NCBI GenBank assembly: GCA_021650915.1
Contig: CP091279.1
Location: 1,590,001-1,622,000, forward strand
Direction of reading: 5' to 3'
Length of the DNA stretch: 32,000 nucleotides
DNA from: Candidatus Brocadia sp.
GTDB taxonomy: Bacteria > Planctomycetota > Brocadiia > Brocadiales > Brocadiaceae
Part shown: positions 9,118-29,311 of the stretch, in pieces
How positions within the stretch are numbered: position 1 is the stretch's first letter
How the letters are laid out: each line of letters starts with the position of its first letter
Notes under the pieces: model-generated
Seen by the model: only the letters and a program-made list of their open reading frames with translations
Databases searched by the model: none
Told to the model about the DNA's origin: nothing
Position numbers and translations under genes: made by a program

Positions 9118-9140
9118 GCACACATCTTAACTATTTTCGG

Positions 9141-10426: not shown

Positions 10427-12556
10427 TTACTTGGCTATATCAAAGCGCAAGTTGCTGCTTCCTTCGCCTCTTCCAACTCTTTTTGTCCGTCCAATCCAAA
10501 GATGTGTCGAGCCATCTACCCACCGACATAAATATGCTTGCCTTGTTACTTGCACACCAGCTCGTGGAATTTCTTCCTCGAGTATACAGTAATTTTCTTT
10601 CTGAATACTCGGATTTAAAAGCCTGATACTTGGATTTAAAATCCTGCCATACGACGGTAATACAAATCTATTTATCTGTTCCCCTACCCCAGGTTGCAGA
10701 TAAGGGCGATCTACTAAGTCCAACATAGCCGCCCGTTCTAATATAATAGCACGATTATCTCCATCACTTTTATGTACCGGAACAAAGGGTATCCAATGAT
10801 CTGGAACCGTGGTTTGTATAATATAGCGCAATAATTTCGCTTGTTCGGTATTTTGATCTTTCTCTTTTGCTTTAGGTTTCCCTTCAATAAATCGTTCATG
10901 TCCTAACCAAGGATTTCCAATCCCATTCTCAGTCGTATGTTCGATTGCCCAAACCATATTTGCCATTTCATCCCGGATAAAGCGCACCTCTTCAATCTCC
11001 TCACCTTTTCTTACGGCTGTAACAATTGATGGGGGAAGAATGAAATAATCTGCAAAGCGATTCCCATCGTTTTGCAGACTGGTAGAAAACATGGACCACC
11101 TTCTGTTTTCCGAAAATTCTTCTTTATCTGCCCGTTCTATGCTGACTTTGCCGCCAAATACATCATGAACTTCCAAGGTAGTTATTTTACATAATGTTCC
11201 CAATTCCTGAGTGAAAGGCAAAACGTACCAATCAATTCCGTGAATTAGCATAAAATCAATAACAGCCAATTTGGCAAGATCTATTTTGCCTGGCTCAATA
11301 TTGCCAAAGTTAACTAACCGGTTTTCAAATTGCCAGAAACGGGAATGGGCCATACCCCTGAAGTTTACATTTGTGGGTATTACGGTCCGATTAATTTGCT
11401 CTGTCTCTCCTGGTTGACGGTCTCTAATAGAATCCATCTGTTCAAAGGTATACCAGTCATATAAACCTTTGCGACTAGGGTCAGCAGAAAACGTGACAAT
11501 CTCATTATCTGGTGTCGTAGCTAAAAATTTAGCCTGATATTCTAATCGGTTCGCCTTCCAATTCTTGCTGTCCTTTCGGTCTATTTCTTTTCCGAAAACT
11601 TTTTCAACCCACCCCTGGAATGCGCTGAGCGCTGATATAAGTTCATCTTTCTTTTGTTGATCTTCGAAAAGAGTAATAATGGGAACGACTTCGTCTCGGC
11701 CTTGATAGAATATTGTTACTTCAGCTGGGAATTTGGCTATTATATCATCGGCGCTTCCTAATGCTTGATAAACAGTTACACCATCAATCGAACTATTAGC
11801 GCAAACACATAAGAAATCCTGTGTTTCCTGATCAATAATTTGGGCTTTGTAAACCCACCACCGATTTGGAAACTCGGCAAAGGAGACCAGGGCATAAATT
11901 TCTGAATTGTTTAAATCTTTAATAACCCAATGTGTTTTCCACTGGACTCCGCTACCTTTCCATTGAGCGAAACTATTATTTGATAGAGAAATGTTTTTAT
12001 TCCGGAATATGTCAACAAATTCATCTGGTACCAATTCACCGGCCATCAAATTTCGATCGGGATCCTGTTGGGGATTTTCCACCGAAAAATCAAAAAGCCG
12101 TTTATTTAAACGAATGGAGCTTCCCTGAGGGATAGGAAAAGCTATTTTAAAGGCTTCTCGAACGGCTAATTTTTCACGGTCGCCCAGCGTTAATTTATTA
12201 AGATACGTTTCTAACCGCTGGCCCAATTCTACACAGGTAGAAATATCGGGTGTGAAGGGTTCATGGTTGACCAATGCCTCCATGGGTTTTGTAGTATGGT
12301 TGAAATCTCCCAAAAGAGGCACTTCTCCTCCTTCTCCAGGAAGCCATGCCTCGAAGCGAGAGATCGTTGCGTTAAATTGTATAAAAATTGGAGATGCAGC
12401 ATCTTCACCTATGAATTCTCCAACTTGCCATTGTCTGGCCAGAAACCAAAGTGGATCACGAACACGAGCTTCTACCCCTCGCTTTAATGATAAATCACGA
12501 TTAGTGCGCGGTCTTGGTTCAAGACGATTCCATGTAGTAATAGTAGGTCCGCTCAT
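10427..12556 (-). CDS. Hypothetical protein (709 aa), last gene of the giant operon
   Basis: Long ORF. AAGGA overlaps the upstream stop, with a 15-nt gap to the 1810-aa gene. No domain recognised. Distinctive strings: RVRDPLWFLARQWQVGEFIGEDAASP, HSRFWQFENRLVNFGNI, GRGEGSSNLRFD. Confidence 0.8.
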   Translation of the reverse strand: MSGPTITTWNRLEPRPRTNRDLSLKRGVEARVRDPLWFLARQWQVGEFIGEDAASPIFIQFNATISRFEAWLPGEGGEVPLLGDFNHTTKPMEALVNHEPFTPDISTCVELGQRLETYLNKLTLGDREKLAVREAFKIAFPIPQGSSIRLNKRLFDFSVENPQQDPDRNLMAGELVPDEFVDIFRNKNISLSNNSFAQWKGSGVQWKTHWVIKDLNNSEIYALVSFAEFPNRWWVYKAQIIDQETQDFLCVCANSSIDGVTVYQALGSADDIIAKFPAEVTIFYQGRDEVVPIITLFEDQQKKDELISALSAFQGWVEKVFGKEIDRKDSKNWKANRLEYQAKFLATTPDNEIVTFSADPSRKGLYDWYTFEQMDSIRDRQPGETEQINRTVIPTNVNFRGMAHSRFWQFENRLVNFGNIEPGKIDLAKLAVIDFMLIHGIDWYVLPFTQELGTLCKITTLEVHDVFGGKVSIERADKEEFSENRRWSMFSTSLQNDGNRFADYFILPPSIVTAVRKGEEIEEVRFIRDEMANMVWAIEHTTENGIGNPWLGHERFIEGKPKAKEKDQNTEQAKLLRYIIQTTVPDHWIPFVPVHKSDGDNRAIILERAAMLDLVDRPYLQPGVGEQINRFVLPSYGRILNPSIRLLNPSIQKENYCILEEEIPRAGVQVTRQAYLCRWVDGSTHLWIGRTKRVGRGEGSSNLRFDIAK
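10605..10646. repeat. 21-bp in-frame tandem duplication inside the 709-aa gene
   Basis: ATACTCGGATTTAAAAGCCTG / ATACTTGGATTTAAAATCCTG (19/21), encoding ILNPSIR/LLNPSIQ. Confidence 0.8.
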
Positions 12557-12571
12557 ATTAATATTTTATCC

Positions 12572-15500
12572 TTAAGGTTTTTTAAAAATACAGTCATCAA
12601 AATCTGTGGAAACGGTATCACAACCATCATCTTGTGGGTCTGCCCCTTTGTTATCAGCCAAACATATCATGGGAAGAAAAGTAAAATTATCCTCCCAATC
12701 ATAATAAGCATGTGTCATTATTTTACCCTCACTTACAAGAAGAGTATCACCGCTTGATTCAACATCCGCTTCATGCTCCCCATCAAATGCCCTGATTTTT
12801 GCATTATCGAGCGTTTGGTTTAGCGAATCAATGATTATATTATGATTCCAATTAGCCACAGGCTGAGGAGGAACGGCTATCAGTACTGCTTCAGGGGCTT
12901 CTGCGCCTGGGCTATCATAATTAAACACTACACCCGGATTCTCCGCGCAATTAGGTATGCTCTCTTCCCAAAAATCCAACAGCAAACCCCCGAAAGGTTC
13001 ACCTTGATTTAATATATTTTGATCTTGCAAAAAAACATGTATGGCTAAACGACCGAATTGCGGTTGGCCATTAAGATTACCAAAAGTGGGGCCGTTTCTG
13101 GGATTACCGAATTCTGCTCCAACCCACCGTGCATTTATTACAGGAAGCTGGATAACCTTTTCAACCATATTCTGGTTTGTATTGAGAGATTTATTGTAGA
13201 GCACAAGCTTTCTCCAACGGCCCAATTTGTGGCTTACTCTTACTACTCGTGCAAACCACTTAGAAAGCGCTTCGTCTCTGTCCTCTCCAAAATCGGGTTC
13301 TTTGTTAAGGGCGTTCTGGAGTTCTTCGACTCGATAAGGCCGGAAAACAGGGATCACTACAAATTGTTTTCCAAATGCCATCTTTATCTTTATTTTTCCG
13401 TCTGAATCTTTTTGACTCTCCATATTTTCGAGACTCTGTTCAATTTTTGCAATAGTTCGTTCTGCATTTTGAACGAGAATTTCTTTATCATCTGTAATAT
13501 ATGGGTATACAGTAGATATTCCGAGGTGAGAGGCACTCTTCAACGATTCTTTCACTTCCTCTATACTCATACTATCGGGATTAGCTTTGTAAAGCCTTAC
13601 CTGAATATCGAGGTCATTTTTAATATGAGTTATTCCTGAATCAAGCTCGATTGCCCGACTGTTCAGTTCATGAGTTTGATGCAGAAAGATAGTATCAACT
13701 TTTTTTACTTTGTTTTCCTCATCAGCAAACCATAGGTCTTCCGGACGAATCGGCCTGGAAACACTTAAGGTATCATAAGCGGCAAGGCATACTTTAAGAG
13801 CAGTGGCTAAATTAATCGTACCTTCTTCCGCTAACATAGAATTGGGAATGTCATAATGAATAAAAAGTATGGAAGCCAATCCTCCTGCTTTATTTTCATG
13901 AGCAAATTGAACAATGCGTTGATAAAGTTCTCCTCCCTCCAGATTACTTTTAGCATTAATAGACATATACAATAAATCTATAGGTTCAACCTCTAAATCA
14001 CTAACCCTGACAGAGACCCTTTCATTATCATCAAAAACAACCTGACATTCAATTTTGTCAGGACGAGGAAGCATGGCGCCCATCCAGGCATTAATCGATG
14101 GCTCAGCACGAGAACGAAGATTGCCACCGGTATTCCAATAATCATTATTAGCATTCATAAGAACAGCTACGCGTTGAGAAAACGAATAACTTCTTCGCGG
14201 TGTTTTGGTCACCAATGGCTCTGGTAAAGCAGCTCCGCGAGACATGGCATCCAATATTGAAGAACCGGCCTCATAATCACTACTAACCAAACGAAATACG
14301 CTTTCAGCCATAAGTAAATCTGTAAGCGCATCAACATTAGTTTCTAAATCAATTAACGCATCTACTAAAGCATCTACTAAAGCAGTCTTTTCAGCATCAG
14401 TGGGCTGAATTTTGACTTCGTTATTTAAGAATGCTTTTATTTTATCTTTTTTTTGATTTTCATCGGTGATATTTTGCAATATTTTCCTCAACTTTTCCCA
14501 CATGGCAAAACCATCTACCACATTTCTGGCGGCAACCATTTCTACTGCCCCATCTATTTTGGATAGCTTCCCTGCTACAACGGGGAATTTTGCACGGAAA
14601 TCGTCAATAAATTTATCTAGCTCAACCCCTTGTTTTTCATGAAGATACCTTTCAAAGAGATACCCTAGTCCGGCGCCAATCGGTTGTCCTTGTCGAATCA
14701 TGTCGATCAAATAGTGGGCTTTGCGGACCCTTGCAGAGGATAAATTAACCGCAAAGGGTTGCTTATCGTTATCCTTGCCGCGCACCAACCAGGCATTTCG
14801 AAGCACGGCTGCTGCGTTTGCTTGTTGCATAGAAGGGGCATAAACATAATCTCCCTTATTAATCATGTAGGCAGAAACTTCCCGTCCACCATCTTGTCGA
14901 ATTATGATTTTTTCGGCACCGCTCTCATGGGGATAAACTGGGCGAATATTCTCTACCCATCCATAGGCCCCGATATAGTTTCTATTGGGGTTATTTTTCC
15001 GTAAATCTTCCAACCTTTTGGCAGCCAGGGAAGTGATCCAGGCATCCAACCGGTAAGCACAGGTATCGAGAGTTTCAGTCATGAGACGTTCTAATTCTGC
15101 TGTTGGTAAATCTGCAAGAATTTCAAGGCTTTTTTTGAAATCGTCAATCCTGCGAAAATTTGGGTTCAATAGATTCAGATTATCAGTAAAAATATATTCT
15201 TCCAAGGTTTTCCCATTGGTTATTCCTGCAACAGGCAGTTTAAAGCGCGACCAAAGGTTAGGTTGTTTTTCTGTTCCTGTCTCTATTCTATGCATCTCAA
15301 ATTCATAGATTTCGGAAGCATCTATCATTTTGGTTTCAAGCAAAATACTATTGCATGAATTAACATATTCCAAACAGGCGCTATGGCGAAGGAGAATGAA
15401 GAACAAAGGTTTCTGTTGCATTTGTTCACCCAAAGCACAAAGCCCTCCAAAGTCAATTGCTGTTCGAATTGCTCGAATATAATTCCTTATATACACCCCA

Positions 15501-18004
15501 TTAAATTCCAAACCACTCCCTTCTTTCCAAAAATTGAAGGAATCATCGAGCGTTTTGGTTTCTGATAGGGGTTCAATAGTTTCTTCTTCCTCAGTTGCAG
15601 GAAGTTGTTTAATAACAATAAGTCCACATTTAAACAAATCTGCATTATCAAAAAAGGTAGCTTTGGAATTTTTAGAGAATTTTGAATATCCTGATGGCAC
15701 TATTATGTTGTAAAGCAAAGAACCCATTCCTGGTTGTTGAGAATATTGTCTAGAATAATAGGAGAAACTGTTACCATCTGGATGCACCTTGGCTGGATAA
15801 TCTTTAAGTTGTGGATAGACCTGATTAACTTTTATAGGATCAATTGGATTTTTCGAGATAGAAACAGAACCAGAATCAGGACCGAAGGGTCCTTTCGTAG
15901 AAACAACCCTTTCTGCATCAATTGCTGTATTATCAACACCATCCGGATCTCCCAAAGACACAATTATACCATCTGTAACTTCTCTTCCTAGAATCTTTCT
16001 CACGTAGTATTCCAGTGAACTGGCACTTGTTGATAAAATTAGTTTGAGATCTTCGAAAGGGTCGCCCCTTAGTCCAACTCTTGGTGCATAATTATTGATA
16101 TAACGCAATAAAATACTTGTTCTCAATAGACTTAATTGCCAATAAAAATAATCAAATGAAAACGAACTGGAATAACTTAGATTGGCTGGATTAGGCACTT
16201 GTAATTGTGTAACAGGAAGAATTCCATAAGGAACATCTCCTATCCGTATAGCAGGAATAGGTCCACGGCCACGAACATAGCGTTCAAAATGCTCTCGAGC
16301 TTTTAAAATTTCATCTTCGGTAAACTGAATGGGAGGATTATGTCTCTGGTCAAAGTCAGGCGCCATCATATGCTTTAAAAAGTATTCAACGGTTGAAGGC
16401 CACAATACCCTCGCCATAGCCATTGCATTGCGCTGTTCCTGCAAGTCAGTACCATAAATGTGATAAATTGTTTGATGAGAGATCCCGATTGCTTTTGAAA
16501 AAACTACTCCATCACCTTGAGGATGTGAAAATCTGTCTCGCCTTTCTCTTCGAAAGCTATTCCTCGTCCTTGGGTCATTTTCTGGAAAACCCGTTTTAGT
16601 ATCTGATGTATTATTTGTTGGTGTACCTTGGGGAATAAATGCCCATCCTTTTGCATAATGATGATTCTCCAATAATTCCCCTATGGTTGCAGTTGCGTCA
16701 TCAGGTTCCATTGAGTGTTTTATTCCAAAAACGAGAATTCTGTCAAATCCCTTATTGAGTTGTTCATGGTCAAGTTTGATTGTCTTTGCCATTCCAACTT
16801 CTTCAGCTTTCGCAAAGTTGAACTGCCATTCCAATTCTTTGGGTACAGCCAAATCACTACCGGGCAATTGATAAAGGTCAGACATATCGACACCAGGTGC
16901 TACCTTTAAAAAGTCTGAGCTTAATGAAAAGGACAATGCTAATCCGTCTGGAATAGGGTTAGAAGTAACAATTTCTGCTTTTTGGAATCGGTCAATACTA
17001 TCGAATTCGTTATTATAGGGCTCGTATTCTTTATACAGTATAATAATCCATCTTTCAGGAAGAAGCCGGGTTTCTGGCATTCGCTGGTGGTTGGGCGACC
17101 GTTTTTGAAGATTTTCAGGAAAGACAGGGTTACTATCGTTTACCGGTAATTCTGCAAAATCATCAATATTCGTGGGTTCGGTCTGCTTTATAATCCAGGC
17201 TGCCCGATTCATGCCAACATTACCAAGTAATTTTGCCCAGGACTCCTGGTGCGCTAATGCCATAGCGGCGGCAGCTTCCCAATATGCCTGACCTTTTTGT
17301 CGCTCTCCTTTATTCAAAGATATTGTACCGGAGCCACCCGGTTCTGAAAGGATTTTGAATTTCAAATCCCCTTCATGTTCTGTCTTGATATGAACGGGCT
17401 TTAATTTATTAATTATTTGCATGGCACGCTGTTCTCCATAGGCGCTAACTATTGTTTGTTTTTTCTCTTTTAATTTATTTGCTTCTGCCCAGGCAGCGGT
17501 CCAGTAGCTTCTACCTTCTGCATCCTCTTGTTCGGTGAGTACCGGCTCATGCATGTCAGCCACAATGGCATCAGGAATAATTCGAATTTTTAGCTCTCCG
17601 TGATACTCCACTGTGTTCCCGCCCTGACTCTCAACTTCTGGTTGGCTATAATGAAAGAAACGGGTTTCCAATTTAACAGGGAAAAAAATAATTGGTGTTT
17701 CTCCATCTAATGACCCCATTTGTAGGAATACATCTACCTCATCAACCTCTTTTCTTTCTTTTTTAATTTCTAAATCCAATTCATTTATTTTATTGCTCGC
17801 GAGTTTAATTTTCTTGATTTGTAACAAAAATTCTTCCCTTTTACCCGCACGGCGCAACTCCAAACTCTCTTTTTTCAAGAGAAGCAGTTCATCTTTCAAT
17901 TGACTAACACGACCTCGTAAAGTCTTTAATTTTATATTTTTTTCTGAAAATTTTTTCATTTTTTTTATCTCATGAATTTTAGGGTGGTAACATATCAGAT
18001 CCAT
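12572..18004 (-). CDS. Hypothetical giant protein (1810 aa), N-terminal coiled coil
   Basis: Uninterrupted 5.4-kb ORF. The maximal start at 18004 overlaps the upstream gene by 26 nt and has no SD. The ATG at 17959 (MKKFSEKN, A-rich leader, 19-nt gap) is more plausible. Residues ~16-95 are K/E/L heptad-rich. Confidence 0.8.
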   Translation of the reverse strand: MDLICYHPKIHEIKKMKKFSEKNIKLKTLRGRVSQLKDELLLLKKESLELRRAGKREEFLLQIKKIKLASNKINELDLEIKKERKEVDEVDVFLQMGSLDGETPIIFFPVKLETRFFHYSQPEVESQGGNTVEYHGELKIRIIPDAIVADMHEPVLTEQEDAEGRSYWTAAWAEANKLKEKKQTIVSAYGEQRAMQIINKLKPVHIKTEHEGDLKFKILSEPGGSGTISLNKGERQKGQAYWEAAAAMALAHQESWAKLLGNVGMNRAAWIIKQTEPTNIDDFAELPVNDSNPVFPENLQKRSPNHQRMPETRLLPERWIIILYKEYEPYNNEFDSIDRFQKAEIVTSNPIPDGLALSFSLSSDFLKVAPGVDMSDLYQLPGSDLAVPKELEWQFNFAKAEEVGMAKTIKLDHEQLNKGFDRILVFGIKHSMEPDDATATIGELLENHHYAKGWAFIPQGTPTNNTSDTKTGFPENDPRTRNSFRRERRDRFSHPQGDGVVFSKAIGISHQTIYHIYGTDLQEQRNAMAMARVLWPSTVEYFLKHMMAPDFDQRHNPPIQFTEDEILKAREHFERYVRGRGPIPAIRIGDVPYGILPVTQLQVPNPANLSYSSSFSFDYFYWQLSLLRTSILLRYINNYAPRVGLRGDPFEDLKLILSTSASSLEYYVRKILGREVTDGIIVSLGDPDGVDNTAIDAERVVSTKGPFGPDSGSVSISKNPIDPIKVNQVYPQLKDYPAKVHPDGNSFSYYSRQYSQQPGMGSLLYNIIVPSGYSKFSKNSKATFFDNADLFKCGLIVIKQLPATEEEETIEPLSETKTLDDSFNFWKEGSGLEFNGVYIRNYIRAIRTAIDFGGLCALGEQMQQKPLFFILLRHSACLEYVNSCNSILLETKMIDASEIYEFEMHRIETGTEKQPNLWSRFKLPVAGITNGKTLEEYIFTDNLNLLNPNFRRIDDFKKSLEILADLPTAELERLMTETLDTCAYRLDAWITSLAAKRLEDLRKNNPNRNYIGAYGWVENIRPVYPHESGAEKIIIRQDGGREVSAYMINKGDYVYAPSMQQANAAAVLRNAWLVRGKDNDKQPFAVNLSSARVRKAHYLIDMIRQGQPIGAGLGYLFERYLHEKQGVELDKFIDDFRAKFPVVAGKLSKIDGAVEMVAARNVVDGFAMWEKLRKILQNITDENQKKDKIKAFLNNEVKIQPTDAEKTALVDALVDALIDLETNVDALTDLLMAESVFRLVSSDYEAGSSILDAMSRGAALPEPLVTKTPRRSYSFSQRVAVLMNANNDYWNTGGNLRSRAEPSINAWMGAMLPRPDKIECQVVFDDNERVSVRVSDLEVEPIDLLYMSINAKSNLEGGELYQRIVQFAHENKAGGLASILFIHYDIPNSMLAEEGTINLATALKVCLAAYDTLSVSRPIRPEDLWFADEENKVKKVDTIFLHQTHELNSRAIELDSGITHIKNDLDIQVRLYKANPDSMSIEEVKESLKSASHLGISTVYPYITDDKEILVQNAERTIAKIEQSLENMESQKDSDGKIKIKMAFGKQFVVIPVFRPYRVEELQNALNKEPDFGEDRDEALSKWFARVVRVSHKLGRWRKLVLYNKSLNTNQNMVEKVIQLPVINARWVGAEFGNPRNGPTFGNLNGQPQFGRLAIHVFLQDQNILNQGEPFGGLLLDFWEESIPNCAENPGVVFNYDSPGAEAPEAVLIAVPPQPVANWNHNIIIDSLNQTLDNAKIRAFDGEHEADVESSGDTLLVSEGKIMTHAYYDWEDNFTFLPMICLADNKGADPQDDGCDTVSTDFDDCIFKKP

Positions 18005-21251: not shown

Positions 21252-21252
21252 G

Positions 21253-24200
21253 TTAGTGGCTGATAAATTCGTTTACAGGAAGAATTTGGATAAAACCACG
21301 CTTTTCCGGATGAAGTTGCAAATGTTGCTCCATCCATTCGAAAGCTCCAGCTCTGGTCAATGGTCCGAGGTTCTGCCGGTCAAATTCATTATCTTTCGAT
21401 AAATTATCAGTATTTGCCACAATAAATATTTCTTCTTTAATAGAAAATGTTTTGGGCCTAATTACACGATCTTTATATTTATTTGTTCCAGAACGGAATA
21501 AGTTAGAATACGCCTTAGTTCCGCTATGGGTTTTTGCCAATAGAATTTCTCTGGATTCTCCTTCGGCTAATTGGCTAGGTTCTTCTCGATCAATGTATTT
21601 TTCTTCGTATTGAAGAGCCCTTTCTTGAATATTTGTGGAATCTCCTTTAATTGTATATGCACCTCGATTGCTCCCAATACTAATGCCAGCCATCATAAGT
21701 TCAAAGGAACTCCTCTGAAGCTTTTCTTGGTCATCGAGATCTTTAAATTGTCCTGGGGCGAAATAATCTTCAACCTTAGCATAAAATGTCCCGAGTTTAT
21801 CAGAATCGTTAGCAGTTTCTTTTGGTTCTACGGTTTCTTCTCCAATCGATACATTTCTCAGTTGAAACGTGTGCTGACCTATGATGGAGTATTCCCGGTA
21901 TTTATCCAGCATACGATTAAGTGGAAGAACTTTTTGGCGCATTTCAATGATTCCCAGGGGATGGACCATCAATTGGGCGCCTACCTCAGGTTGACGAAAA
22001 CTGCCGGCTAGATATGCACTCGGTGGCAAAGAGGCCTTCCAGCTTTCTTCACTTTGTATGGCGTCCTGTAATTCCGGCCATGGGTCCAGGGGCGGAAGCT
22101 GTGTGGGGTCTTCATCTCCAAATGTACGTGAAAATCTAATAGGAATATCAAAAAACAATATTGAAATACGAGCCTCTCCGTTAATTCGAAACGGGGAAGG
22201 ACCGGATAAACTACCAGAAATGGAAATGCCCAGAAATGAAGCTCCAGCCACCTCTACCTCAAAGCCCTGACTAAATGAAAATGTAAAATGGAAAGGCGAA
22301 AAGACGATTAACCCATCAAAAATAAGCCACCCATTGATATTGATCTCGTCTATCCCAACAAAAATTTTGACGTCAGCGCCAAATTGGAAAGAATTAGAGG
22401 AGATTGCAAAGTAACCTTCAACACTCAGTCGAACAATATCCTCAAAATTAAGGGCAACCCGGACGCGATCCATATCCGGGAAATTGGGAGGTGGGTTGAA
22501 AGCTGGGTGATACCCTCCAACTGAGAGCAAAAAATTGGAATTGCTTCCCCAATTTACGAGAAAAGCCATACTCCCTTCCATCTTAAAAAAGGCCAGGCGT
22601 GAATCACGCAGGTTTACAAGGATAGAAAGTTGTTTCTTTTCAAAGTTTAGTTCTCCTCTTACATCAACGTGTAATTCGACTATAGGAAAGTCATCTGCAG
22701 GCAAGAGGGCCTCCAACTGACCTAATATGACAATTATTATGGGTGAGGGGAATATTATTAAAATTCCTACTTCAATTTTAAATATTGCCGGTCTCCCCCA
22801 TACAATCTGTGCTAATGGCCCAAATACAAACTGGTCCATCTGGGCAGGGAATACCCGATCCACATCATTGATGATCTTTGGCATATTATTTAATGGGTCA
22901 TCAGGAAACATAATACTATCCAGTGCCCCTTGCCGAATACCATCTTCAAGGGCGTCGCTGGAATAAGTTCTGTGAATACCGACCAACCCGCCAACCCCAT
23001 CAAGGATAAAACCAAATCCGAGTTGGATAAATAACTTTTCAGCAGTGATAATAATGAGAAATGAGAATCCGGGAGGTGGCAAGTCTCTGCCATTACTATC
23101 TTTTGTTGATAAAATACCAATTGCCGTAACTTCAATCGCAAGCAGATCAAGGTATAGCATACCGGCGTATTGGCCACGATCTTTATCAAAGCGAATAAAA
23201 CCCCCACCGGCAACCGGTCCGGCATCTATGCTTAAACCAAATCCACTAGGAGGACGAAATTCCATTCTGGCATCAACCGGTCCAAGATTCCCGTCTTGCT
23301 GTTTAATAAGAGTGGTGGTCAGACCCATACCTTCAACTACGCCAACCACCGGACCCAGCGTTAATCGGGCACTTTCAAGGATAAAATCAATTTCATTCCT
23401 GTCACGGGTCTTATTAATATTAATCTGAATGGTATCCAGATAGAAAATACTCCCGATATCCTTATTTATAGGGATATAAAAACGTATTCCGGTATCGCTA
23501 TCTCCTGACACCGATAATCCGCTTGCCCAACGAAAATCAAGAGCAAACGAAAAATCATTATTCAAATAACTTAACTTATTTATGGTTAATTCAACAGGTA
23601 ACAAATCTTCAACCATCGGAACTCTCACATAATTCACTATTCTTCCGCTCAAAGCAAAATCTATGTTATTGCCGCTTCTTCCTAGAATTAAACTCTTCAA
23701 GAAAATATCGATGAAATTTGCAATATGTAAGACTTCTATTCCATCGTCGTCAGAAATCTGAACCTCTATTTTAAAGCCATCTTCCAAGATACTTAAAATA
23801 AATTCCAAGGCAATAGGGGTATTATTCCGATCTTTGAAAGCGGGCAGTTCGATTCTTCCGCGAATGGTGCTGTCGTTGTTAATAATACCGGATGAATTAA
23901 AGGTAACCTCTAATTGATCCAGATAAATTTTAACACCTTGAAAATTAATAGGTGCATTGGATTGCAATAAGGAAATACGATAGATTCCACCGTCATATAT
24001 TTTGAAACTTATATCAATCAGCTTCGGCTGATTCTGATCGTTCTTCCAATCTGGAATGGTTATGGTTCCCTGAATAGTGGAATCAATGATTCCATCCGCA
24101 TTAAAAGAAAAGGAAAAGTTTGATATCTGCAGTTTAAATATAAATAAATCAATCTCAGCCGGTATATTTGAAGCATCAATGCGAAATGTATCATTGCTTA

Positions 24201-25212
24201 TAGAAATACGCACATCAATTGGCACATGTTCTCGTTGGTTGTCAGATGTTTTTTTTTCGAAAAAGGGAATATAAATCCGTCCTTCAAGGCTAAAGCCGTT
24301 AAGATTATTACGAAGCATTTCCATTTCGAATTTATTTAAACCCATACTAATTCCAAATAGCGTACCGGACGCATCCCCGGTAAATTGTCCTGTATCAGGA
24401 TCAAACCCAGGGGTAAAAACTGCTGATATTGAGCCGCTGACTCCACCGGTACCTATAATGAAATTTGAAGCGTTAACAGGGGGTAAAATATCACCGAGTT
24501 CACCGTCAAAATAAACGCTTAGAGTTTGTACATATATACCTTGAAAACTTTCATCAAAACCGGCATCTATAATTTCTTGGATTGAATCCTTTTTGGAAAG
24601 GTCGAGTTTTAGATTTTGAAATGTTAAGGCAATTGGAATATTCCTTAACTTACATGGGGTAAGATTTAAGGAGTCGAATCCTCTCGCTGATATATTGAAA
24701 TCTTTGTCGAGAAGAAGGCTTCCGACTGTTGAAATAGTGGCTTTTGAACTCCCATTGATTTCCACGAATTTCTTATCAACTTTTAGAGGCACACCATCTT
24801 GGCCAATTTCAATTGGAATCAATAAATCGCGCCCGAATTTAATGCCAAGCTCGACATTAGATAAATTTAAATAAAAACTTTCGGTTCTTATTTCAACAGA
24901 TATCTTGAAAGGAAAGTATCCTGCGCGACCAATCTCGAAAGTTATAAAATCAAGACCCACGATCGAGATTTCAAGTTTTTCCAAGAGCAGCATATCGATT
25001 GACATGCTTATAAAGTCATCGCCAAAATTTATCCGGTAGTCTGTATAACAAACGTAATCTAGAAACGACCTTTCATCTTCTCCTGCCCCTAAGTCAGATT
25101 TCTGAAATAACTGGAATGGGAATGCATCTATATCCATTAAGTTGCTGATAGGTTTTGCTCTCAGCAGTAATTTGTCATCTTCACTAAAATTACTTAAATC
25201 AAAATCTGGCAT
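21253..25212 (-). CDS. Hypothetical beta-repeat protein (1319 aa)
   Basis: The ATG lies 3 nt after the PLD stop, with GGAG 9 nt upstream. Internal ~60-75-aa repeat units span ~23530-24640. A Gly-rich hydrophobic C-terminal block spans ~22180-23225. Confidence 0.8.
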   Translation of the reverse strand: MPDFDLSNFSEDDKLLLRAKPISNLMDIDAFPFQLFQKSDLGAGEDERSFLDYVCYTDYRINFGDDFISMSIDMLLLEKLEISIVGLDFITFEIGRAGYFPFKISVEIRTESFYLNLSNVELGIKFGRDLLIPIEIGQDGVPLKVDKKFVEINGSSKATISTVGSLLLDKDFNISARGFDSLNLTPCKLRNIPIALTFQNLKLDLSKKDSIQEIIDAGFDESFQGIYVQTLSVYFDGELGDILPPVNASNFIIGTGGVSGSISAVFTPGFDPDTGQFTGDASGTLFGISMGLNKFEMEMLRNNLNGFSLEGRIYIPFFEKKTSDNQREHVPIDVRISISNDTFRIDASNIPAEIDLFIFKLQISNFSFSFNADGIIDSTIQGTITIPDWKNDQNQPKLIDISFKIYDGGIYRISLLQSNAPINFQGVKIYLDQLEVTFNSSGIINNDSTIRGRIELPAFKDRNNTPIALEFILSILEDGFKIEVQISDDDGIEVLHIANFIDIFLKSLILGRSGNNIDFALSGRIVNYVRVPMVEDLLPVELTINKLSYLNNDFSFALDFRWASGLSVSGDSDTGIRFYIPINKDIGSIFYLDTIQININKTRDRNEIDFILESARLTLGPVVGVVEGMGLTTTLIKQQDGNLGPVDARMEFRPPSGFGLSIDAGPVAGGGFIRFDKDRGQYAGMLYLDLLAIEVTAIGILSTKDSNGRDLPPPGFSFLIIITAEKLFIQLGFGFILDGVGGLVGIHRTYSSDALEDGIRQGALDSIMFPDDPLNNMPKIINDVDRVFPAQMDQFVFGPLAQIVWGRPAIFKIEVGILIIFPSPIIIVILGQLEALLPADDFPIVELHVDVRGELNFEKKQLSILVNLRDSRLAFFKMEGSMAFLVNWGSNSNFLLSVGGYHPAFNPPPNFPDMDRVRVALNFEDIVRLSVEGYFAISSNSFQFGADVKIFVGIDEININGWLIFDGLIVFSPFHFTFSFSQGFEVEVAGASFLGISISGSLSGPSPFRINGEARISILFFDIPIRFSRTFGDEDPTQLPPLDPWPELQDAIQSEESWKASLPPSAYLAGSFRQPEVGAQLMVHPLGIIEMRQKVLPLNRMLDKYREYSIIGQHTFQLRNVSIGEETVEPKETANDSDKLGTFYAKVEDYFAPGQFKDLDDQEKLQRSSFELMMAGISIGSNRGAYTIKGDSTNIQERALQYEEKYIDREEPSQLAEGESREILLAKTHSGTKAYSNLFRSGTNKYKDRVIRPKTFSIKEEIFIVANTDNLSKDNEFDRQNLGPLTRAGAFEWMEQHLQLHPEKRGFIQILPVNEFISH

Positions 25213-25215
25213 TAA

Positions 25216-27738
25216 TCAAACTCCATCTATTTGTAAAAAGCGAACATGATGTGTCTTGTTGCTACTTCTCCAGTATTTGTTAAAAGCTATTAAAGGGTCT
25301 TGAAGATAGGGATCTGAAGCTTTTAAGCCTAAATGCTCCGCCCACAATCTTGTGCGTAAATTTTTAGCAAATTCCCTCGCACCGCTTGCATCGACTTTTT
25401 CATCTATAATCATAACGTTACATTCTTGACTGCATGTATCCGACCTAATAATACTACGATTGTTATTATCAAGCTTAACACCAAGACCACGGCTATCCAA
25501 ATTAGCACTTCCGCATGAAACAAAAATATCATCTATGATTTGGAGTTTTGTATGCACATAGATATTTCTCCCTACCGCAACTTCTAAAAAGCAAATCCTG
25601 ACCTTTGCGTTAAAAACTTGTTCTCCAACACCAACACTATTTCTGATAGCTCTCAGCCGATCTCGCGCATCTGGTTCACCCGGGGTATTATTTGTCCAAT
25701 TCCTCAGGGGAATTACAATAATAACAAATTCTACTCTGCTAATTGCAGTTGTGAGCAATGGTATTAATGCATCGCTGTTGAAATATTGATCTTCTATATA
25801 AATATAATGCCTTGCGTTCTGGACAGCCTGCTGTATTGTATTCCATATTGTGTAATCCCCGTTTTCAGCAAATGAATAATTATTTGGTCCCAAAGCCATT
25901 TGAGGATCCTTCGGTGTTGTCCTTGCCACTTGAATTATATGTTTTCCTATTGGCATTGCGGATGCATCTGATGGCGCGCTGAATGCAGCAGTAGGTCTCA
26001 CGCTGAAGGTTCTATGGTCAGCCCATCTTTGATATAAAACAAGATCAAGTTCGTTTGTTGCTAAACCTTCCACTTTTATTGTAACATCATGCACTGCCCA
26101 CTCTTCATCTCTTGCAAATTCGTGGGAACCGTCAGTAAGCCTGTTCGGCCAAAGATCCATTCCTCCACAATAACCAATCAAATTATTCGCATTTTTAATG
26201 GTAATGACTTTCATATGTATGGCAGAGGTATTACTCACCTTATCATCACGTCGCCAACGAGTTTGATGGATTTGCCAGCCCATCAATGCATTTTCAAGAG
26301 CATCTGCTTCAGAATCTTGGTTCCAGAAAGGTATAGTATCAGGGTCATAAAATAAAATAACTAAATTATTTGCATAATTACTTAATAAGGTTAAAAGTTT
26401 ATTATTTGGGTTGCTATCGACAAGCATTTGATAATCAGTTCCGTAACCATCACTATAGTTTGTGCCATTAAAATTACTTGTCAGATCTTTCAATACAAGG
26501 TTTGTATAGAATGCCCATCCAGCAATATGAATAAATTGATTGTCAGAATCACTGCCCTGAATAATTTTTCCAATAGCAGAACTTAAATCAGCAAAATACT
26601 CGAATCCGTCTATAAGATAATCAGCTTTATTTCCTTCTGTATACCGCCTCAATACTCTTCTTCCAGCCGGTGGATCTGTAGGATAACCGTTAGTGAATTC
26701 GTTTATATTTACGTCTTGTTCAGCAAACCAGTCAGCTGGTTTAAAAACATAAACTATCATGTGATTCGGTGGCGTAAACATTAAATCGACTTCAATAGAC
26801 GTATTCTTTTGATTAATTCTTTCTTGAAAAAAAAATTTATCATCCTCAGTATTTAACAAATCTCCGGTACTTTTTTTACCGGAAATTTTAATATTAGCTG
26901 TTGCGGCACCTTCAACAACAACGGAGCCTCTCACTAGTTCAGTGCCTCTTATCATGGTAAGAGTTGTTCCATCAGATTTTCTAAAATGTAAAGCCACATC
27001 AGTGGTTAACTCGAATAGATCATTACTTGAATCAGATGTTATTGGACAGTTAAATTCATCTCTCAATTCTATAATACCTCTCTGGAGGTTATTGTTAAGT
27101 AGCGTATTATTAATTAAGGTCTTGTCCTGCTCGGAAATAGTAAAGGAATTATTGCTAATTATTTCTTCCCAGAAAAATAAAGGATCCATATTGTTGAATT
27201 TTATTGAAGAACCGTTGAATGAAAATTCTCGCTTAACTCGAGTTGTTTCAATTCTGAATGTTATTTCTTCGGATGGTATAGCAATAATAGGAGGAGGCCA
27301 AATTTCATCCCAAGGGTTTAAGTCATAAAAACTATTATCGTCAGCGACAATAGCATCAAAATATTCATCACGGTTTCTAATCAATTTTCGTTGAAACATT
27401 AATTTTTGTGGCGATTTAAGATTATTGAAGGCAGCTTCCTTAAAAGCATCAGTTAAATTCTTTACACCTGAATAAATGAAAGCCGATATATTTTCAAACC
27501 CAGGAACCTCAATTTTTTCAACAAGCTCAAACTTTAATTCATACTCATTATTAATTTTTGTTACATACAATTTACTCTTACAGATTGCTTTAAGGGTATT
27601 CTGAGAAGAATAGTTGTTGATTCTAATTTTTATACCGTCAGAAAAGATATTGGAAGCTTTGGGACCATATAGCTCGGTTACACTATATGAAGAACCCCCT
27701 ATCGGAGGTGATAGGAAAAATTGCATCTCAATAGCCAT
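25216..27738 (-). CDS. Phospholipase D-superfamily protein (two HKD motifs) with unknown ~390-aa N-terminal region (840 aa)
   Basis: AAGGAG lies 5 nt upstream of the ATG. HKD1 is SAIHMKVITIKNANNLIGYCGGMDLWPNRLTDGSH (His codon 26215-26217). HKD2 is IYVHTKLQIIDDIFVSCGSANLDSRG (His codon 25552-25554). Confidence 0.85.
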   Translation of the reverse strand: MAIEMQFFLSPPIGGSSYSVTELYGPKASNIFSDGIKIRINNYSSQNTLKAICKSKLYVTKINNEYELKFELVEKIEVPGFENISAFIYSGVKNLTDAFKEAAFNNLKSPQKLMFQRKLIRNRDEYFDAIVADDNSFYDLNPWDEIWPPPIIAIPSEEITFRIETTRVKREFSFNGSSIKFNNMDPLFFWEEIISNNSFTISEQDKTLINNTLLNNNLQRGIIELRDEFNCPITSDSSNDLFELTTDVALHFRKSDGTTLTMIRGTELVRGSVVVEGAATANIKISGKKSTGDLLNTEDDKFFFQERINQKNTSIEVDLMFTPPNHMIVYVFKPADWFAEQDVNINEFTNGYPTDPPAGRRVLRRYTEGNKADYLIDGFEYFADLSSAIGKIIQGSDSDNQFIHIAGWAFYTNLVLKDLTSNFNGTNYSDGYGTDYQMLVDSNPNNKLLTLLSNYANNLVILFYDPDTIPFWNQDSEADALENALMGWQIHQTRWRRDDKVSNTSAIHMKVITIKNANNLIGYCGGMDLWPNRLTDGSHEFARDEEWAVHDVTIKVEGLATNELDLVLYQRWADHRTFSVRPTAAFSAPSDASAMPIGKHIIQVARTTPKDPQMALGPNNYSFAENGDYTIWNTIQQAVQNARHYIYIEDQYFNSDALIPLLTTAISRVEFVIIVIPLRNWTNNTPGEPDARDRLRAIRNSVGVGEQVFNAKVRICFLEVAVGRNIYVHTKLQIIDDIFVSCGSANLDSRGLGVKLDNNNRSIIRSDTCSQECNVMIIDEKVDASGAREFAKNLRTRLWAEHLGLKASDPYLQDPLIAFNKYWRSSNKTHHVRFLQIDGV

Positions 27739-27929
27739 TACAACTCCTTATAAATATTGGATGAATAGAAATTGCTTTTATGAATCAGGAAAACGTTTCT
27801 CTGTTGAGATAAGAGGCCATATGTGTAATAAGGGATTGCCAAAATGCATGGTAACATTACTTTGTTAAAAAACGCATATAAAATTAAAGATTTTTCATGT
27901 CGTCAGCGCCATCCACCTCACTTCTTCCT

Positions 27930-28610: not shown

Positions 28611-28794
28611 AGCATATCTCCTTGCTGTAAGCTCCTTGGTTTAAGCTGAACGAGTGGAACACATAATATAAAGTGAAGCTGTATCTTCATGTACCATCCG
28701 GCAAAAAAACATAGTGTTGTGTAAAATTAGATGGTCTCAGTATACATTTCTGCCTTTTGATGGCTTTTTTTTGTTTATGCGTTGGCTCTATAAA

Positions 28795-29264
28795 TTAAAA
28801 ATCAAACCTATCGGTGATATATCCACTGAAATGCCAACTATTTTTATTGCAATTGCGGTCTCCCACATAAATTTTAAAGTAGTTGTTACCAGCACCAACT
28901 GGTCGGTTCAGCTCGTATGCCTTTCCAACACAGCCGCTCTACAAACCAGGGTTCCTGAACGCTTAATATCCCAGAGTCCTGTAATACTTTCGGCATCGCT
29001 ATTACCTATTGCAATCAGAATAAACTCATATGTCTTGCCTGGAGAGACCTCAGCCCAAGCACGAAAATAGCCATTACGGCTCTTTTCTGTCCATGTTGTG
29101 GCAGCATATCCCTTTTGGAAGGAATTATAAGTAGTTTGGGTATCTCCATCTATAACTAAAAACGGCTTTTGCGACCAAATGCTGTGTGTTTGAGCCAGGG
29201 CAGTAACAGAGAAAAGAATAAAAAATGTGAATACGAAAAGAATACGGACTTATAGCCTAATCAT
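28795..29264 (-). pseudogene. Decayed small secreted-protein gene (in-frame stop at codon 5 plus a frameshift)
   Basis: GGAGGAG-aataact-ATG, then MIRL-TAA(29250-29252)-VRILFVFTFFILFSVTALAQTHS..., a signal-peptide-like sequence. This frame ends at the TGA at 28908-28910. A protein-like continuation ...KAYELNRPVGAGNNYFKIYVGDRNCNKNSWHFSGYITDRFDF runs in another frame to the TAA at 28795-28797. Confidence 0.4.
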
Positions 29265-29311
29265 AGTTATTCTCCTCCATTCAGGTAGATATGATATGCA
29301 AAATCTATACG

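What the first reader, a model, noticed from the sequence alone, without database searches (positions are those of the whole stretch)
10427..27738. Five-gene, 17.3-kb operon of giant proteins headed by a phospholipase D: candidate undescribed system
Five minus-strand ORFs (840, 1319, 1090, 1810, 709 aa; 5768 codons) are tightly packed. The junctions are 3 nt (25213-25215), 1 nt (21252), either a 26-nt overlap or a 19-nt gap depending on the start used (18004/17959), and 15 nt with AAGGA overlapping the stop (12557-12571). This indicates one translationally coupled unit. Only the first product is recognisable, as a two-HKD PLD. Reading the other four, I see no canonical Walker A (GxxxxGK[ST]), no N-terminal signal peptide or lipobox, and no YD/RHS or adhesin-type repeats. 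There are also no small sheath, tube or baseplate-like genes. The operon therefore does not fit T6SS/eCIS, Tc/ABC toxins, two-partner secretion, or the ATPase/helicase-based defence systems I know. What is visible is a lipid hydrolase, a beta-repeat protein, a protein with one central TM hairpin and a coiled-coil giant. That combination suggests a self-contained membrane-targeting complex for toxin delivery, membrane remodelling or membrane-directed abortive infection. The IS, intron and TA context is typical of accessory or defence islands.
Basis: partly seen in the sequence, partly recalled or inferred. Interest (0 to 1): 0.92.

Follow-up and report, generated by a model that had tools for sequence, protein, structure and literature searches.

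The report
Unknown four-protein machine, swappable hydrolase
This operon from an anammox bacterium encodes four very large proteins with no recognisable relatives that recur together and in the same order in hundreds of bacterial and some archaeal species, each time next to a different degradative enzyme (here a phospholipase D), which points to an undescribed enzyme- or toxin-delivery complex.

Summary
The unit is better read as a conserved four-gene core plus a variable head gene. The core is O2 (DUF6603), O3, O4 and O5, about 4,700 aa in typical relatives (4,928 aa here). O3 relatives occur in at least 577 species-representative genomes across many bacterial phyla, haloarchaeal megaplasmids and one Asgard MAG. 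In 60 of 62 loci long enough to judge, the four core genes are colinear on one strand. The head gene varies: PLD here and in two other loci, elsewhere PhoD-like phosphatases, serine or metalloproteases, a glyoxal-oxidase-like enzyme or unknowns. A crude scan found no signal peptide on any of them. O3, O4 and O5 have no Pfam, NCBIfam, PADLOC, PHROG or PDB-sequence hit. Confident AlphaFold models of O3 and O5 match nothing in the PDB, and the O3 model matches nothing in BFVD. There is no conserved NTPase. Most O3 homologues carry a hydrophobic helical hairpin. Rare homologues add extracellular-type binding domains to the C-termini of core proteins. My best reading (about 0.42) is a self-contained complex that delivers a swappable hydrolase to an external target. 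The main rival (about 0.25) is an intracellular abortive-infection system. It belongs to no apparatus in the libraries searched and looks like a new kind of system.

The parts
25216..27738 (-). O1, 840 aa: the variable 'head' or payload gene. It has an N-terminal region of about 480 aa of unknown function and a C-terminal two-HxK phospholipase-D catalytic region (about residues 496-825, window 25264-26253).
   Evidence: Pfam PLDc_2 at E=3.6e-8 and TIGR04265 spanning residues 508-757. The HKD motifs lie at 26146-26217 (degenerate) and 25483-25554 (canonical). The closest solved relatives are human PLD1/PLD2 and plant PLD. Homologues head only 2 other cassettes, L056 and L076. It has the lowest GC of the operon, 0.359.
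21253..25212 (-). O2, 1319 aa: core protein 1. The DUF6603 domain covers residues 583-1162 (window 21727-23466), and the N-terminal region is longer than in most homologues (about 1140 aa in total).
   Evidence: Pfam PF20248 at E=8e-130. A homologue sits immediately upstream of O3 in 61 of 62 testable loci. No paper in the searched library mentions DUF6603 or PF20248.
17979..21251 (-). O3, 1090 aa: core protein 2. It has a conserved N-terminal beta-rich domain (about 30-340), a helical middle and a conserved C-terminal alpha/beta domain (about 770-1090).
   Evidence: No family or PDB-sequence hit, even with a family profile. The AF2 model has pLDDT 80.1 and pTM 0.72. Foldseek finds nothing in the PDB or BFVD. 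The family has 6,775 representatives at the 50%-identity cluster level and relatives in at least 577 species genomes.
19389..19520 (-). The hydrophobic helical hairpin of O3 (residues 578-621). It is moderately hydrophobic here.
   Evidence: Sequence FIGSVSAGSLSSIALAAGLITKIVWVQGIGSFTLGLSALVFTYQF, with a 19-residue Kyte-Doolittle window mean peaking at 1.6-1.7. The model places helices at 584-603 and 609-637. In 64 of 78 homologues the same position scores ≥1.8 on that measure; the homologues inspected there carry one 38-41-residue hydrophobic stretch or two of 15-23.
12572..18004 (-). O4, 1810 aa (1795 aa if it starts at 17959): core protein 3. It has an N-terminal coiled-coil-like segment at residues about 23-96 (window 17717-17938) and conserved blocks at about 400-600, 950-1150, 1200-1350 and 1650-1750.
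   Evidence: No family hit. There are 104 homologues across phyla, all unnamed.
10427..12556 (-). O5, 709 aa: core protein 4, the last gene of the operon.
   Evidence: No family or PDB hit, including by family profile. The AF2 model has pLDDT 81.7 and pTM 0.81. Foldseek against the PDB gives a best E of 0.035 with TM 0.1. The most conserved stretch, residues 7-57, is predicted disordered in the monomer. There are 575 homologues.
27739..27929 (-). The 191-nt spacer upstream of O1, with GGAG 8 nt before the ATG. It is the likely leader or promoter region.
   Evidence: Read directly from the sequence. The consensus promoter scan found no more sites than in shuffled sequence, so no promoter is assigned.
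27930..28610 (-). A 226-aa ORF on the same strand, just upstream of O1. Its membership of the unit is uncertain.
   Evidence: A gene precedes O1 at this position in 5 of 6 contigs of this species (226 aa where complete, cut at the contig end in two); the sixth contig starts too close to O1 to show it. It has no Pfam hit, and the iterative search seeded with O1-O5 flagged no comparable upstream gene in the loci from other species.

Best explanation
O2-O5 encode a conserved, NTPase-free, multi-subunit apparatus built from four unrelated protein families. O3 and O5 have folds not seen before; O2 and O4 were not modelled. The gene in front of the core encodes an interchangeable hydrolase payload. 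In this Candidatus Brocadia locus the payload is a eukaryotic-type phospholipase D. I propose that the four core proteins assemble into one complex. The complex carries or positions the payload and engages a membrane through the hydrophobic helical hairpin of O3. It acts on a target outside the producer's cytoplasm, either another cell's envelope or extracellular material. In logic it would be a self-contained toxin or exoenzyme delivery complex, comparable to Tc/ABC toxins but not related to them. What is shown: operon coupling, strict co-occurrence and colinearity of the core, swapping of the head gene, absence of known domains, folds or an NTPase, the hairpin, and extracellular-type accessory domains on some homologues. 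What is inferred: physical assembly, payload loading, export or release, and the external target.
For: 1. It is one unit. The junctions are 3, 1, -26/+19 and 15 nt. Junctions are similarly tight or overlapping in Chitinophaga, Acidobacteria, Cellulomonas, Streptomyces and other loci. Of 62 loci with room for the whole core, 61 have all four genes and 60 are colinear on one strand.
2. The head gene is swappable. Among 64 immediately upstream genes Pfam finds PhoD in 6, NAL1-like serine protease in 6, S8 subtilase in 5 (best E 1e-45), M64 in 5, trypsin in 4, PLD in 3, M10 in 1 and glyoxal/galactose-oxidase-like in 1; the rest are unknown. A 1519-aa protein with a peptidoglycan-binding domain heads one Streptomyces cassette. 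By my own knowledge these are classes typical of secreted enzymes and toxins. No nuclease, TIR or SIR2 family is among the families listed. None of the 64 has a signal-peptide-like N-terminus in a crude scan.
3. Some homologues add binding domains to the core proteins. C-terminal additions are Fasciclin on O3, PASTA on O4, and two lamin-tail domains or Hcp on O5. Insertions are FG-GAP/VCBS repeats in O3 and a haloarchaeal surface domain in O4. This suggests exposed C-termini and an extracellular setting.
4. 64 of 78 O3 homologues carry a central hydrophobic segment; those inspected show a tight hydrophobic helical hairpin.
5. The most conserved N-terminal segments of O5 (residues 7-57) and O3 (residues 8-17) are low-confidence in the monomer models. 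That is expected for segments that fold against a partner subunit.
6. The same core occurs in diderm bacteria, monoderm bacteria and archaea. This argues against a machine that spans one particular envelope type and fits a released or self-inserting particle.
7. O1 is closest to true phospholipases D. By my own knowledge that is the enzyme class of the T6SS Tle5 toxins.
Against: No export route is visible. The 18 neighbourhoods with Pfam or RefSeq gene annotation show no signal peptides, no secretion ATPase, no lysis cassette and no conserved immunity gene. Some accessory domains are typical of cytoplasmic proteins: a WD40 insertion in O4 and EF-Tu fused to the N-terminus of another O4. No adaptor or packaging domain shared between payload classes was found by BLAST or profile-profile comparison. 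Assembly, localisation and activity are all untested. O2 and O4 were not modelled. The accessory-domain evidence rests on a few percent of homologues.
Confidence: 0.42

Rival explanations
1. It is an intracellular conflict system, either anti-phage or abortive infection. O2-O5 would form a large sensor or scaffold tethered to the inner face of the membrane by the O3 hairpin. On infection it would release a swappable hydrolase that destroys host membrane (PLD here) or host proteins (proteases elsewhere).
For: A conserved core with an interchangeable effector is, by my own knowledge, the hallmark of many defence systems. No protein has a signal peptide. No immunity gene is needed in this model. 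This locus sits among IS elements, group II introns and a HigB/HigA-like pair. Copies on Streptomyces plasmids have integrases or transposases nearby. The distribution is patchy and includes megaplasmids. A WD40 insertion and an EF-Tu fusion in O4 homologues could serve as sensors or decoys.
Against: PADLOC-DB gives no credible hit; the best are E=0.011 for the PLD against DrmC and E=0.032 for O4. There is no conserved NTPase or nucleic-acid-binding domain. The families listed for the 64 head genes include no nuclease, TIR, SIR2 or pore former. Instead they are families known mostly as secreted enzymes (S8, M64, M10, PhoD, glyoxal oxidase). Core proteins in some lineages carry Fasciclin, PASTA, LTD, FG-GAP or a haloarchaeal surface domain. 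Eight chromosomal neighbourhoods show no defence genes. IMG/VR holds no relatives.
Confidence: 0.25
2. It is a housekeeping or adaptive cell-surface assembly. In this reading it is a non-classical secretion or display scaffold that anchors exoenzymes (protease, phosphatase, lipase, oxidase) at the producer's own surface for nutrient acquisition or envelope remodelling, and not a weapon.
For: The head genes belong to nutrient-scavenging enzyme classes: PhoD, proteases, PLD and glyoxal oxidase. O3 has a membrane hairpin. Adhesion or surface domains are appended in some lineages. The neighbours are ordinary metabolic genes. No immunity genes are present.
Against: The tight hairpin puts both O3 domains on the same side of the membrane, and no component has an export signal. 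Conservation of the core across diderm, monoderm and archaeal envelopes is hard to reconcile with a surface-anchored scaffold. A 4,700-aa core is a very costly anchor for a single enzyme. The patchy, plasmid-borne and sometimes decaying distribution is accessory in character, not housekeeping.
Confidence: 0.12
3. It is an accessory module of a contractile injection system (eCIS or T6SS). The core proteins would be cargo, chaperones or target-recognition parts used by a sheath-and-tube machine encoded elsewhere in the genome.
For: In Chitinophaga filiformis the cassette lies directly upstream of an eCIS cluster with Pvc16_N, sheath, gp19-like tube, CIS_tube and VgrG genes. One O5 homologue carries a C-terminal Hcp domain at E=1.5e-21. 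By my own knowledge the phyletic range resembles that reported for eCIS.
Against: eCIS genes are adjacent in only one genome (loci L005 and L006) among the roughly 90 loci held at that point, and the Hcp fusion is a single case. The window itself contains no sheath, tube or baseplate gene. Other loci have unrelated neighbours.
Confidence: 0.05

Closest known systems
Tc (ABC) toxin complexes (TcA/TcB/TcC)
   Same: Both are a few very large proteins, about 5,000 aa in total, encoded in one operon. Both lack an ATPase and signal peptides. Both are self-contained membrane-inserting assemblies with a variable enzymatic payload and receptor-binding add-ons. The properties of Tc toxins stated here come from my own knowledge.
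   Different: No TcA, TcB or TcC signature domain (VRP1, TcA_TcB_BD, SpvB, RHS/YD repeats) is found in any of the five proteins. The O3 and O5 models match no solved structure. The payload is a separate upstream gene and not the C-terminus of an RHS cocoon protein. The core has four families and not three.
Extracellular contractile injection systems and T6SS
   Same: Both have swappable effectors without signal peptides and occur in bacteria and archaea. One cassette is adjacent to an eCIS cluster and one O5 is fused to Hcp.
   Different: The cassette encodes no sheath, tube, baseplate, spike or AAA+ ATPase. The association with eCIS or Hcp is seen in 2 of about 90 loci.
T6SS Tle5-type phospholipase D effectors (PldA/PldB)
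   Same: O1 is a two-HxK phospholipase D of the eukaryotic type. By my own knowledge that is the enzyme class Tle5 toxins use against membranes.
   Different: The window has no VgrG or Hcp gene and no immunity gene next to O1. I made no direct sequence comparison with Tle5. O1 also has a 480-aa N-terminal region of unknown function.
Defence systems with interchangeable effectors (for example Lamassu, Avs, CBASS)
   Same: Both have a conserved core plus an effector that is swapped between lineages, and both are patchy and often on mobile elements.
   Different: There is no NTPase, SMC, cyclase or STAND module and no PADLOC hit. The effector repertoire is proteases, phosphatases and lipases, with no nuclease, TIR or SIR2 among the listed families. 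The core is far larger and carries extracellular-type add-ons in some lineages.
Streptomyces umbrella toxin particles (UmbA/B/C)
   Same: Both are multi-protein particles with a long coiled-coil-containing subunit, trypsin-like subunits and lectin or binding modules. This comparison rests on my own knowledge only.
   Different: By my own knowledge, Umb proteins are Sec-secreted, restricted to Actinomycetota, and carry the toxin as the C-terminus of UmbC. Here there are no signal peptides, the system spans many phyla and archaea, and the hydrolase is a separate gene. I did not test homology directly.

Membership tests
Tc/ABC toxin complex | A TcA-type subunit with VRP1, TcA_TcB_BD or neuraminidase-like domains | tested here: not met
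   Pfam scan of all five proteins at E<=0.1 finds only PLDc_2/PLDc in O1 and DUF6603 in O2.
Tc/ABC toxin complex | A TcB/TcC cocoon built of RHS/YD repeats with a C-terminal toxin | tested here: not met
   No RHS, YD or SpvB hit in any ORF. The payload is a separate upstream gene.
eCIS / T6SS | Sheath, tube (Hcp/gp19), baseplate/VgrG and AAA+ ATPase genes within the cluster | tested here: not met
   None is present in the window. phmmer with eCIS proteins from Chitinophaga filiformis (locus L005) and an Hcp domain against the roughly 90 loci held at that point hits only L005 and L090 themselves.
Known anti-phage defence systems (PADLOC-DB v2.0.0) | A significant match of at least one core protein to a defence-system profile | tested here: not met
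   The best hits are DrmC for the PLD at E=0.011 and a type I specificity subunit for O4 at E=0.032. O2, O3 and O5 have none.
P-loop NTPase-driven machines (secretion ATPases, STAND, helicases) | A conserved Walker A motif or NTPase domain | tested here: not met
   No NTPase family is found. The only [AG]xxxxGK[ST] string, at O4 residue 926, is not conserved in 67 homologues.
Phospholipase D superfamily (O1 only) | Two HxK(x)4D catalytic motifs and a PLD-like domain | tested here: met
   PLDc_2 scores 33.8 bits against a cutoff of 27. Motif 2 is canonical. Motif 1 keeps HxK but lacks the D. The best PDB relatives are PLD1, PLD2 and plant PLD. Catalytic activity was not tested.
DUF6603 (PF20248) (O2 only) | A full-length match to the Pfam model | tested here: met
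   E=8e-130, covering profile positions 2-501 of 502. The family has no assigned function, and no paper in the searched library mentions it.
Polymorphic toxin systems / two-partner secretion | An N-terminal secretion signal or TPS domain, a toxin at the C-terminus of a large carrier protein, and an adjacent immunity gene | tested here: not met
   No signal-peptide-like N-termini in 64 head genes and only 1 among about 280 core proteins in a crude scan. No haemagglutinin or TPS domains. The hydrolase is a separate ORF, and no conserved small gene follows it.
Phage-derived structural module | Sequence or fold similarity to phage or viral proteins, or presence in viral genomes | tested here: not met
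   PHROGs finds nothing for O2-O5. BFVD Foldseek with the O3 model gives a best E of 0.076. IMG/VR holds no relatives. The single 'phage' record is an unverified 75%-GC scaffold.

The most novel reading that the evidence does not exclude
O2-O5 form a previously unrecognised, ATPase-free protein-delivery nanomachine built from four new protein families, with new folds for the two that were modelled. It is shared by many bacterial phyla and by archaea. It loads one of many interchangeable hydrolases (lipase, protease, phosphatase or oxidase) and delivers it across or onto a target membrane. That would make it a new class of toxin or effector delivery system alongside Tc toxins, contractile injection systems and umbrella particles.
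Probability: 0.38. Interest if true: 0.92.

Novelty: categorically new. Interest (0 to 1): 0.83.

Why it matters
A four-gene core of about 4,700 codons is held colinear across at least 577 species, and O3 alone has 6,775 cluster representatives at 50% identity. It spans most major bacterial phyla, haloarchaeal megaplasmids and an Asgard MAG. That much conservation implies a strongly selected function, yet none has been described. Three of the four families are absent from Pfam, and the two confident models match no solved structure. If it is a delivery machine, it adds a new mechanism of interbacterial or anti-eukaryote antagonism, and the modular payload slot could be engineered. If it is a defence system, it would be among the largest known and would work without an NTPase. 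Either way, cultivable hosts such as Streptomyces, Chitinophaga, Algoriphagus, Bradyrhizobium and haloarchaea make it directly testable. For anammox biology, it marks a large accessory weapon or defence locus in Candidatus Brocadia that sits among mobile elements.

Tried and rejected
- Sequence families. Pfam, NCBIfam, PADLOC and PHROGs give nothing for O3, O4 and O5.
- PDB by sequence. phmmer with each core protein and family profiles for O5 and O3 find nothing. The BRIL-fusion GPCR hits at E of about 0.5 are helical noise.
- Fold search. Foldseek against the PDB for O5 and O3, and against BFVD for O3, gives nothing at E<0.03 and TM no higher than 0.1.
- Structure prediction limits.
- A shared adaptor or packaging domain among payload classes. 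BLAST and hhalign between clusters are negative, apart from a 40-residue motif shared by two unknown classes.
- Paralogy among the four core families. hhalign is negative.
- eCIS or Hcp linkage as a general rule. Rejected: it holds for one genome and one fusion.
- Phage origin. Rejected.
- A P-loop in O4. Rejected, because the string is not conserved.
- Internal repeats in O2 by self-BLAST. None found.
- Literature. Searches for DUF6603, PF20248, eCIS with Chitinophaga, generic descriptors, and Brocadia with PLD return nothing relevant.
- Linking the upstream c-di-GMP riboswitch to the operon. Unresolved, because related contigs all break about 1.6 kb upstream of O1.
Full report
**1. The observation**

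Five ORFs lie head to tail on the minus strand at 25216-27738 (O1, 840 aa), 21253-25212 (O2, 1319), 17979-21251 (O3, 1090), 12572-18004 (O4, 1810) and 10427-12556 (O5, 709).

- O1/O2: a 3-nt gap.
- O2/O3: a 1-nt gap.
- O3/O4: a 26-nt overlap, or a 19-nt gap if O4 starts at 17959. Public gene calls use the latter start.
- O4/O5: a 15-nt gap with AAGGA overlapping the stop.

No consensus terminator scan result stands out between the genes. O3 is 99% identical to a protein fragment from Candidatus Brocadia fulgida (BROFUL_01532). An identical O5 occurs on a contig of assembly GCA_000987375.1 and on several Logan assemblies. The window therefore comes from a Candidatus Brocadia anammox planctomycete.

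**2. What is recognisable**

- O1 has a PLD-like domain (PLDc_2, E=3.6e-8, above the gathering score; a weak cardiolipin-synthase profile spans residues 508-757).
- O1 has two HxK motifs. H729-T-K-LQII-D...GSAN is canonical. H508-M-K-VITI-K lacks the aspartate.
- O1's closest solved relatives are human PLD1, PLD2 and plant PLD (E down to 6e-7). It is a phospholipase-type PLD, not a Nuc-type nuclease.
- O2 matches DUF6603 over the full model (E=8e-130).
- O3, O4 and O5 match nothing in Pfam, NCBIfam, PADLOC-DB or PHROGs.
- None of O2-O5 matches any PDB sequence, and family profiles of O3 and O5 do not either.
- The one Walker-like string, in O4, is not conserved in the family.

**3. The unit is a four-gene core plus a variable head**

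Homologues of O4 are found in Bacteroidota, Acidobacteriota and Actinomycetota. Their neighbourhoods show the same series each time: a variable protein of 640-940 aa, then DUF6603 (about 1,150 aa), then a protein of about 1,000 aa, then one of 1,400-2,100 aa, then one of about 600 aa.

The 80 fetched loci cover these groups:

- Acidobacteriota, Bacteroidota, Chloroflexota, Planctomycetota and Verrucomicrobiota
- Actinomycetota, Gemmatimonadota, Chlorobium, a Heliobacteriaceae MAG and Myxococcota
- Alpha-, Beta- and Gammaproteobacteria (Ruegeria, Bradyrhizobium, Nitrosomonas)
- One Asgard MAG

Iterative profile searches over the ORFs of the loci held at that point (L001-L089) labelled the core genes. 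Of 62 loci with room for the whole core, 61 have all four genes and 60 are colinear on one strand. An exhaustive HMMER search finds 6,775 O3 representatives at the 50%-identity cluster level, 3,759 of them at E<=1e-30. The cassette also sits on megaplasmids of haloarchaea (Salinigranum, Natrinema, Halalkalicoccus, Halobellus) and on plasmids of Streptomyces, Gemmatirosa and Rhizobium. The four core families are unrelated to one another.

**4. The head gene is swappable**

Only two other loci have an O1-like PLD, and the similarity is confined to the catalytic region. Pfam families among the 64 immediately upstream, same-strand genes are as follows:

| Family | Loci |
|---|---|
| PhoD-like phosphatase | 6 |
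| NAL1-like serine protease | 6 |
| S8 subtilase (best E 1e-45) | 5 |
| M64 metallopeptidase | 5 |
| Trypsin-like | 4 |
| PLD | 3 |
| M10 | 1 |
| Glyoxal/galactose-oxidase-like | 1 |

The remaining head genes fall into several unknown classes.

- The commonest class is about 500 aa, often present in 2-4 tandem copies, and only weakly NAL1/trypsin-like.
- One Streptomyces cassette is headed by a 1,519-aa protein with a peptidoglycan-binding domain.
- A haloarchaeal cassette is headed by a PhoD-like protein.
- No nuclease, TIR or SIR2 family is among the families listed.
- None of the 64 has a signal-peptide-like or Tat-like N-terminus in a crude scan.
- No domain common to the payload classes was found by BLAST or profile-profile comparison.

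**5. Structure**

AlphaFold2 with alignments of 111 and 107 sequences gave confident models for O5 (pLDDT 81.7, pTM 0.81) and O3 (pLDDT 80.1, pTM 0.72).

- Foldseek against the PDB gave no significant match: best E 0.035 for O5 and 0.36 for O3, with TM no higher than 0.1.
- O3 against predicted viral structures (BFVD) gave a best E of 0.076.
- O3 consists of a beta-rich N-domain, a long helical middle and an alpha/beta C-domain.
- In 64 of 78 homologues the middle of O3 carries a central hydrophobic segment. In the homologues inspected it is a tight hydrophobic hairpin: one stretch of 38-41 residues, or two of 15-23 separated by a few residues. That geometry puts both conserved domains on the same side of a membrane. 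By my own knowledge it also resembles the buried hairpins of some pore-forming toxins.
- In the window protein the hairpin (residues 578-621) is only moderately hydrophobic.
- The most conserved N-terminal stretches of O5 (residues 7-57) and O3 (residues 8-17) are low-confidence in the monomer models. I read these as likely inter-subunit contacts. This is an inference.

**6. Clues to location**

A few homologues carry extra domains, and profile mapping shows they are additions to intact core proteins.

- C-terminal additions: Fasciclin on O3, PASTA on O4, two lamin-tail domains on a haloarchaeal O5, and Hcp on another O5.
- Insertions: FG-GAP/VCBS repeats in place of the O3 hairpin region, a haloarchaeal surface domain in O4, and WD40 and biotin-lipoyl-like inserts in O4.
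- One O4 has an EF-Tu fused at its N-terminus.

By my own knowledge most of these are extracellular binding modules. WD40 and EF-Tu are not.

**7. Context**

- An eCIS cluster directly follows the cassette in Chitinophaga filiformis. This is the only such case among the roughly 90 loci held at that point, and the Hcp fusion is also unique.
- Other neighbourhoods hold metabolic or regulatory genes.
- Two Streptomyces plasmid copies lie next to integrases or transposases.
- IMG/VR has no relatives.
- The single 'phage' record is an unverified 75%-GC scaffold carrying the whole cassette.
- Some copies are fragmented by frameshifts.

**8. Interpretation**

The following are shown:

- A translationally coupled operon.
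- A four-protein core under strong co-inheritance across domains of life.
- A swappable hydrolase gene.
- No NTPase.
- No known fold for the two modelled subunits.
- A membrane-type hairpin in O3.

My best-supported mechanism (confidence about 0.42) is a self-contained complex that carries the hydrolase to a target outside the producer's cytoplasm. In this Brocadia locus the hydrolase is a phospholipase D that would attack a target membrane. The support is fourfold:

- The payload families are classes normally secreted, yet they lack signal peptides.
- Nucleic-acid-directed effectors are absent.
- Some core proteins carry extracellular-type add-ons.
- The core is indifferent to envelope type.

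The main rival (about 0.25) is an intracellular abortive-infection system with swappable effectors. A surface exoenzyme scaffold (about 0.12) and an eCIS/T6SS accessory module (about 0.05) are less likely. The rest of the probability is reserved for functions I have not thought of. Assembly, export and target are all inferred.

**9. Comparison and novelty**

In logic the system most resembles Tc/ABC toxins and other effector-delivery particles. It fails every membership test for Tc toxins, eCIS/T6SS, PADLOC defence systems, NTPase-driven machines, polymorphic toxins or two-partner secretion, and phage modules. Only O1 (PLD superfamily) and O2 (DUF6603, function unknown) belong to named families. 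No paper in the searched library mentions DUF6603 or PF20248. I rate it categorically new, with one caveat: the function is still unknown, and a more sensitive fold comparison of O2 and O4 could still reveal a distant link.

Noticed in passing
window 3635-5659 and 6423-8447, with 5689-6383 between them: There is a perfect 2,025-nt inverted repeat, 100% complementary. Each arm is a complete group II intron, with Rfam D1-D4 and domain V/VI matches and a 438-aa RT/maturase ORF. The arms flank a 763-nt segment that carries a Gp49/HigB-like toxin (98 aa) and a HigA-like HTH antitoxin (133 aa). Two identical introns bracketing a TA pair look like a recent duplication or a composite mobile unit.
   Followed up: partly
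window 1-~1700 and 1856-~3500: Two tandem copies of an IS4-like DDE transposase element are present. The repeat register shifts by 1 nt between positions 300 and 531 of the copies. This probably explains why copy 1 has an intact 487-aa ORF while copy 2 is split into 164-aa and 340-aa ORFs.
   Followed up: partly
window 31301-31426 (minus strand): A c-di-GMP-I-GGC riboswitch aptamer (Rfam RF03167, 64.6 bits, above the gathering score) lies on the operon's strand, about 3.6 kb upstream of O1. Between them are two overlapping plus-strand ORFs (29498-30238 and 30201-30962) that look by eye like a frameshifted transposase, and a 226-aa ORF. Whether the riboswitch once controlled the operon could not be resolved, because related contigs all break about 1.6 kb upstream of O1.
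   Followed up: partly
window 8440-9123 and 9247-10257 (minus strand): An IS200-like Y1 transposase (227 aa) and an IS630-like DDE_3 transposase (336 aa) lie immediately downstream of O5. The cassette is therefore bounded by mobile elements on this side.
   Followed up: no
P0103 (O4 homologue, 2036 aa): A complete EF-Tu (GTP_EFTU, D2 and D3; residues 13-390) is fused to the N-terminus of an otherwise normal O4 core. The cluster has 4 member sequences. It could be a real fusion, for example a decoy or sensor, or an assembly chimera.
   Followed up: partly
P0195 / L090 10001-12193: An O5 homologue carries a C-terminal T6SS Hcp domain (E=1.5e-21) within a normal O2-O3-O4-O5 cassette. This is the only such case seen.
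   Followed up: yes
L001 (Ca. Brocadia fulgida LAQJ01000158.1) and L096: In the B. fulgida draft, O3 and O4 are split into several ORFs (628+305+175 aa and 877+918 aa), although O5 is identical to the window's. In L096, O4 and O5 are fragmented by frameshifts. These are either decaying copies or assembly errors.
   Followed up: no
L067 (Flavihumibacter MAG): This is the only locus with room for the core that lacks a detectable O2. Its PhoD-like gene lies downstream of O5 rather than upstream of the core.
   Followed up: no
L093 (Streptomyces europaeiscabiei plasmid, locus 3762-7916 and 25184-29470): The cassette is bracketed by two sets of adjacent tyrosine recombinase/integrase genes. This suggests carriage on a recombinase-driven mobile element.
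   Followed up: no
window 25216-27738 compared with the rest of the operon: O1 has the lowest GC of the operon, 0.359. O2-O5 range from 0.393 to 0.427 and the window as a whole is 0.423. This is consistent with the head gene having been acquired separately from the core.
   Followed up: no
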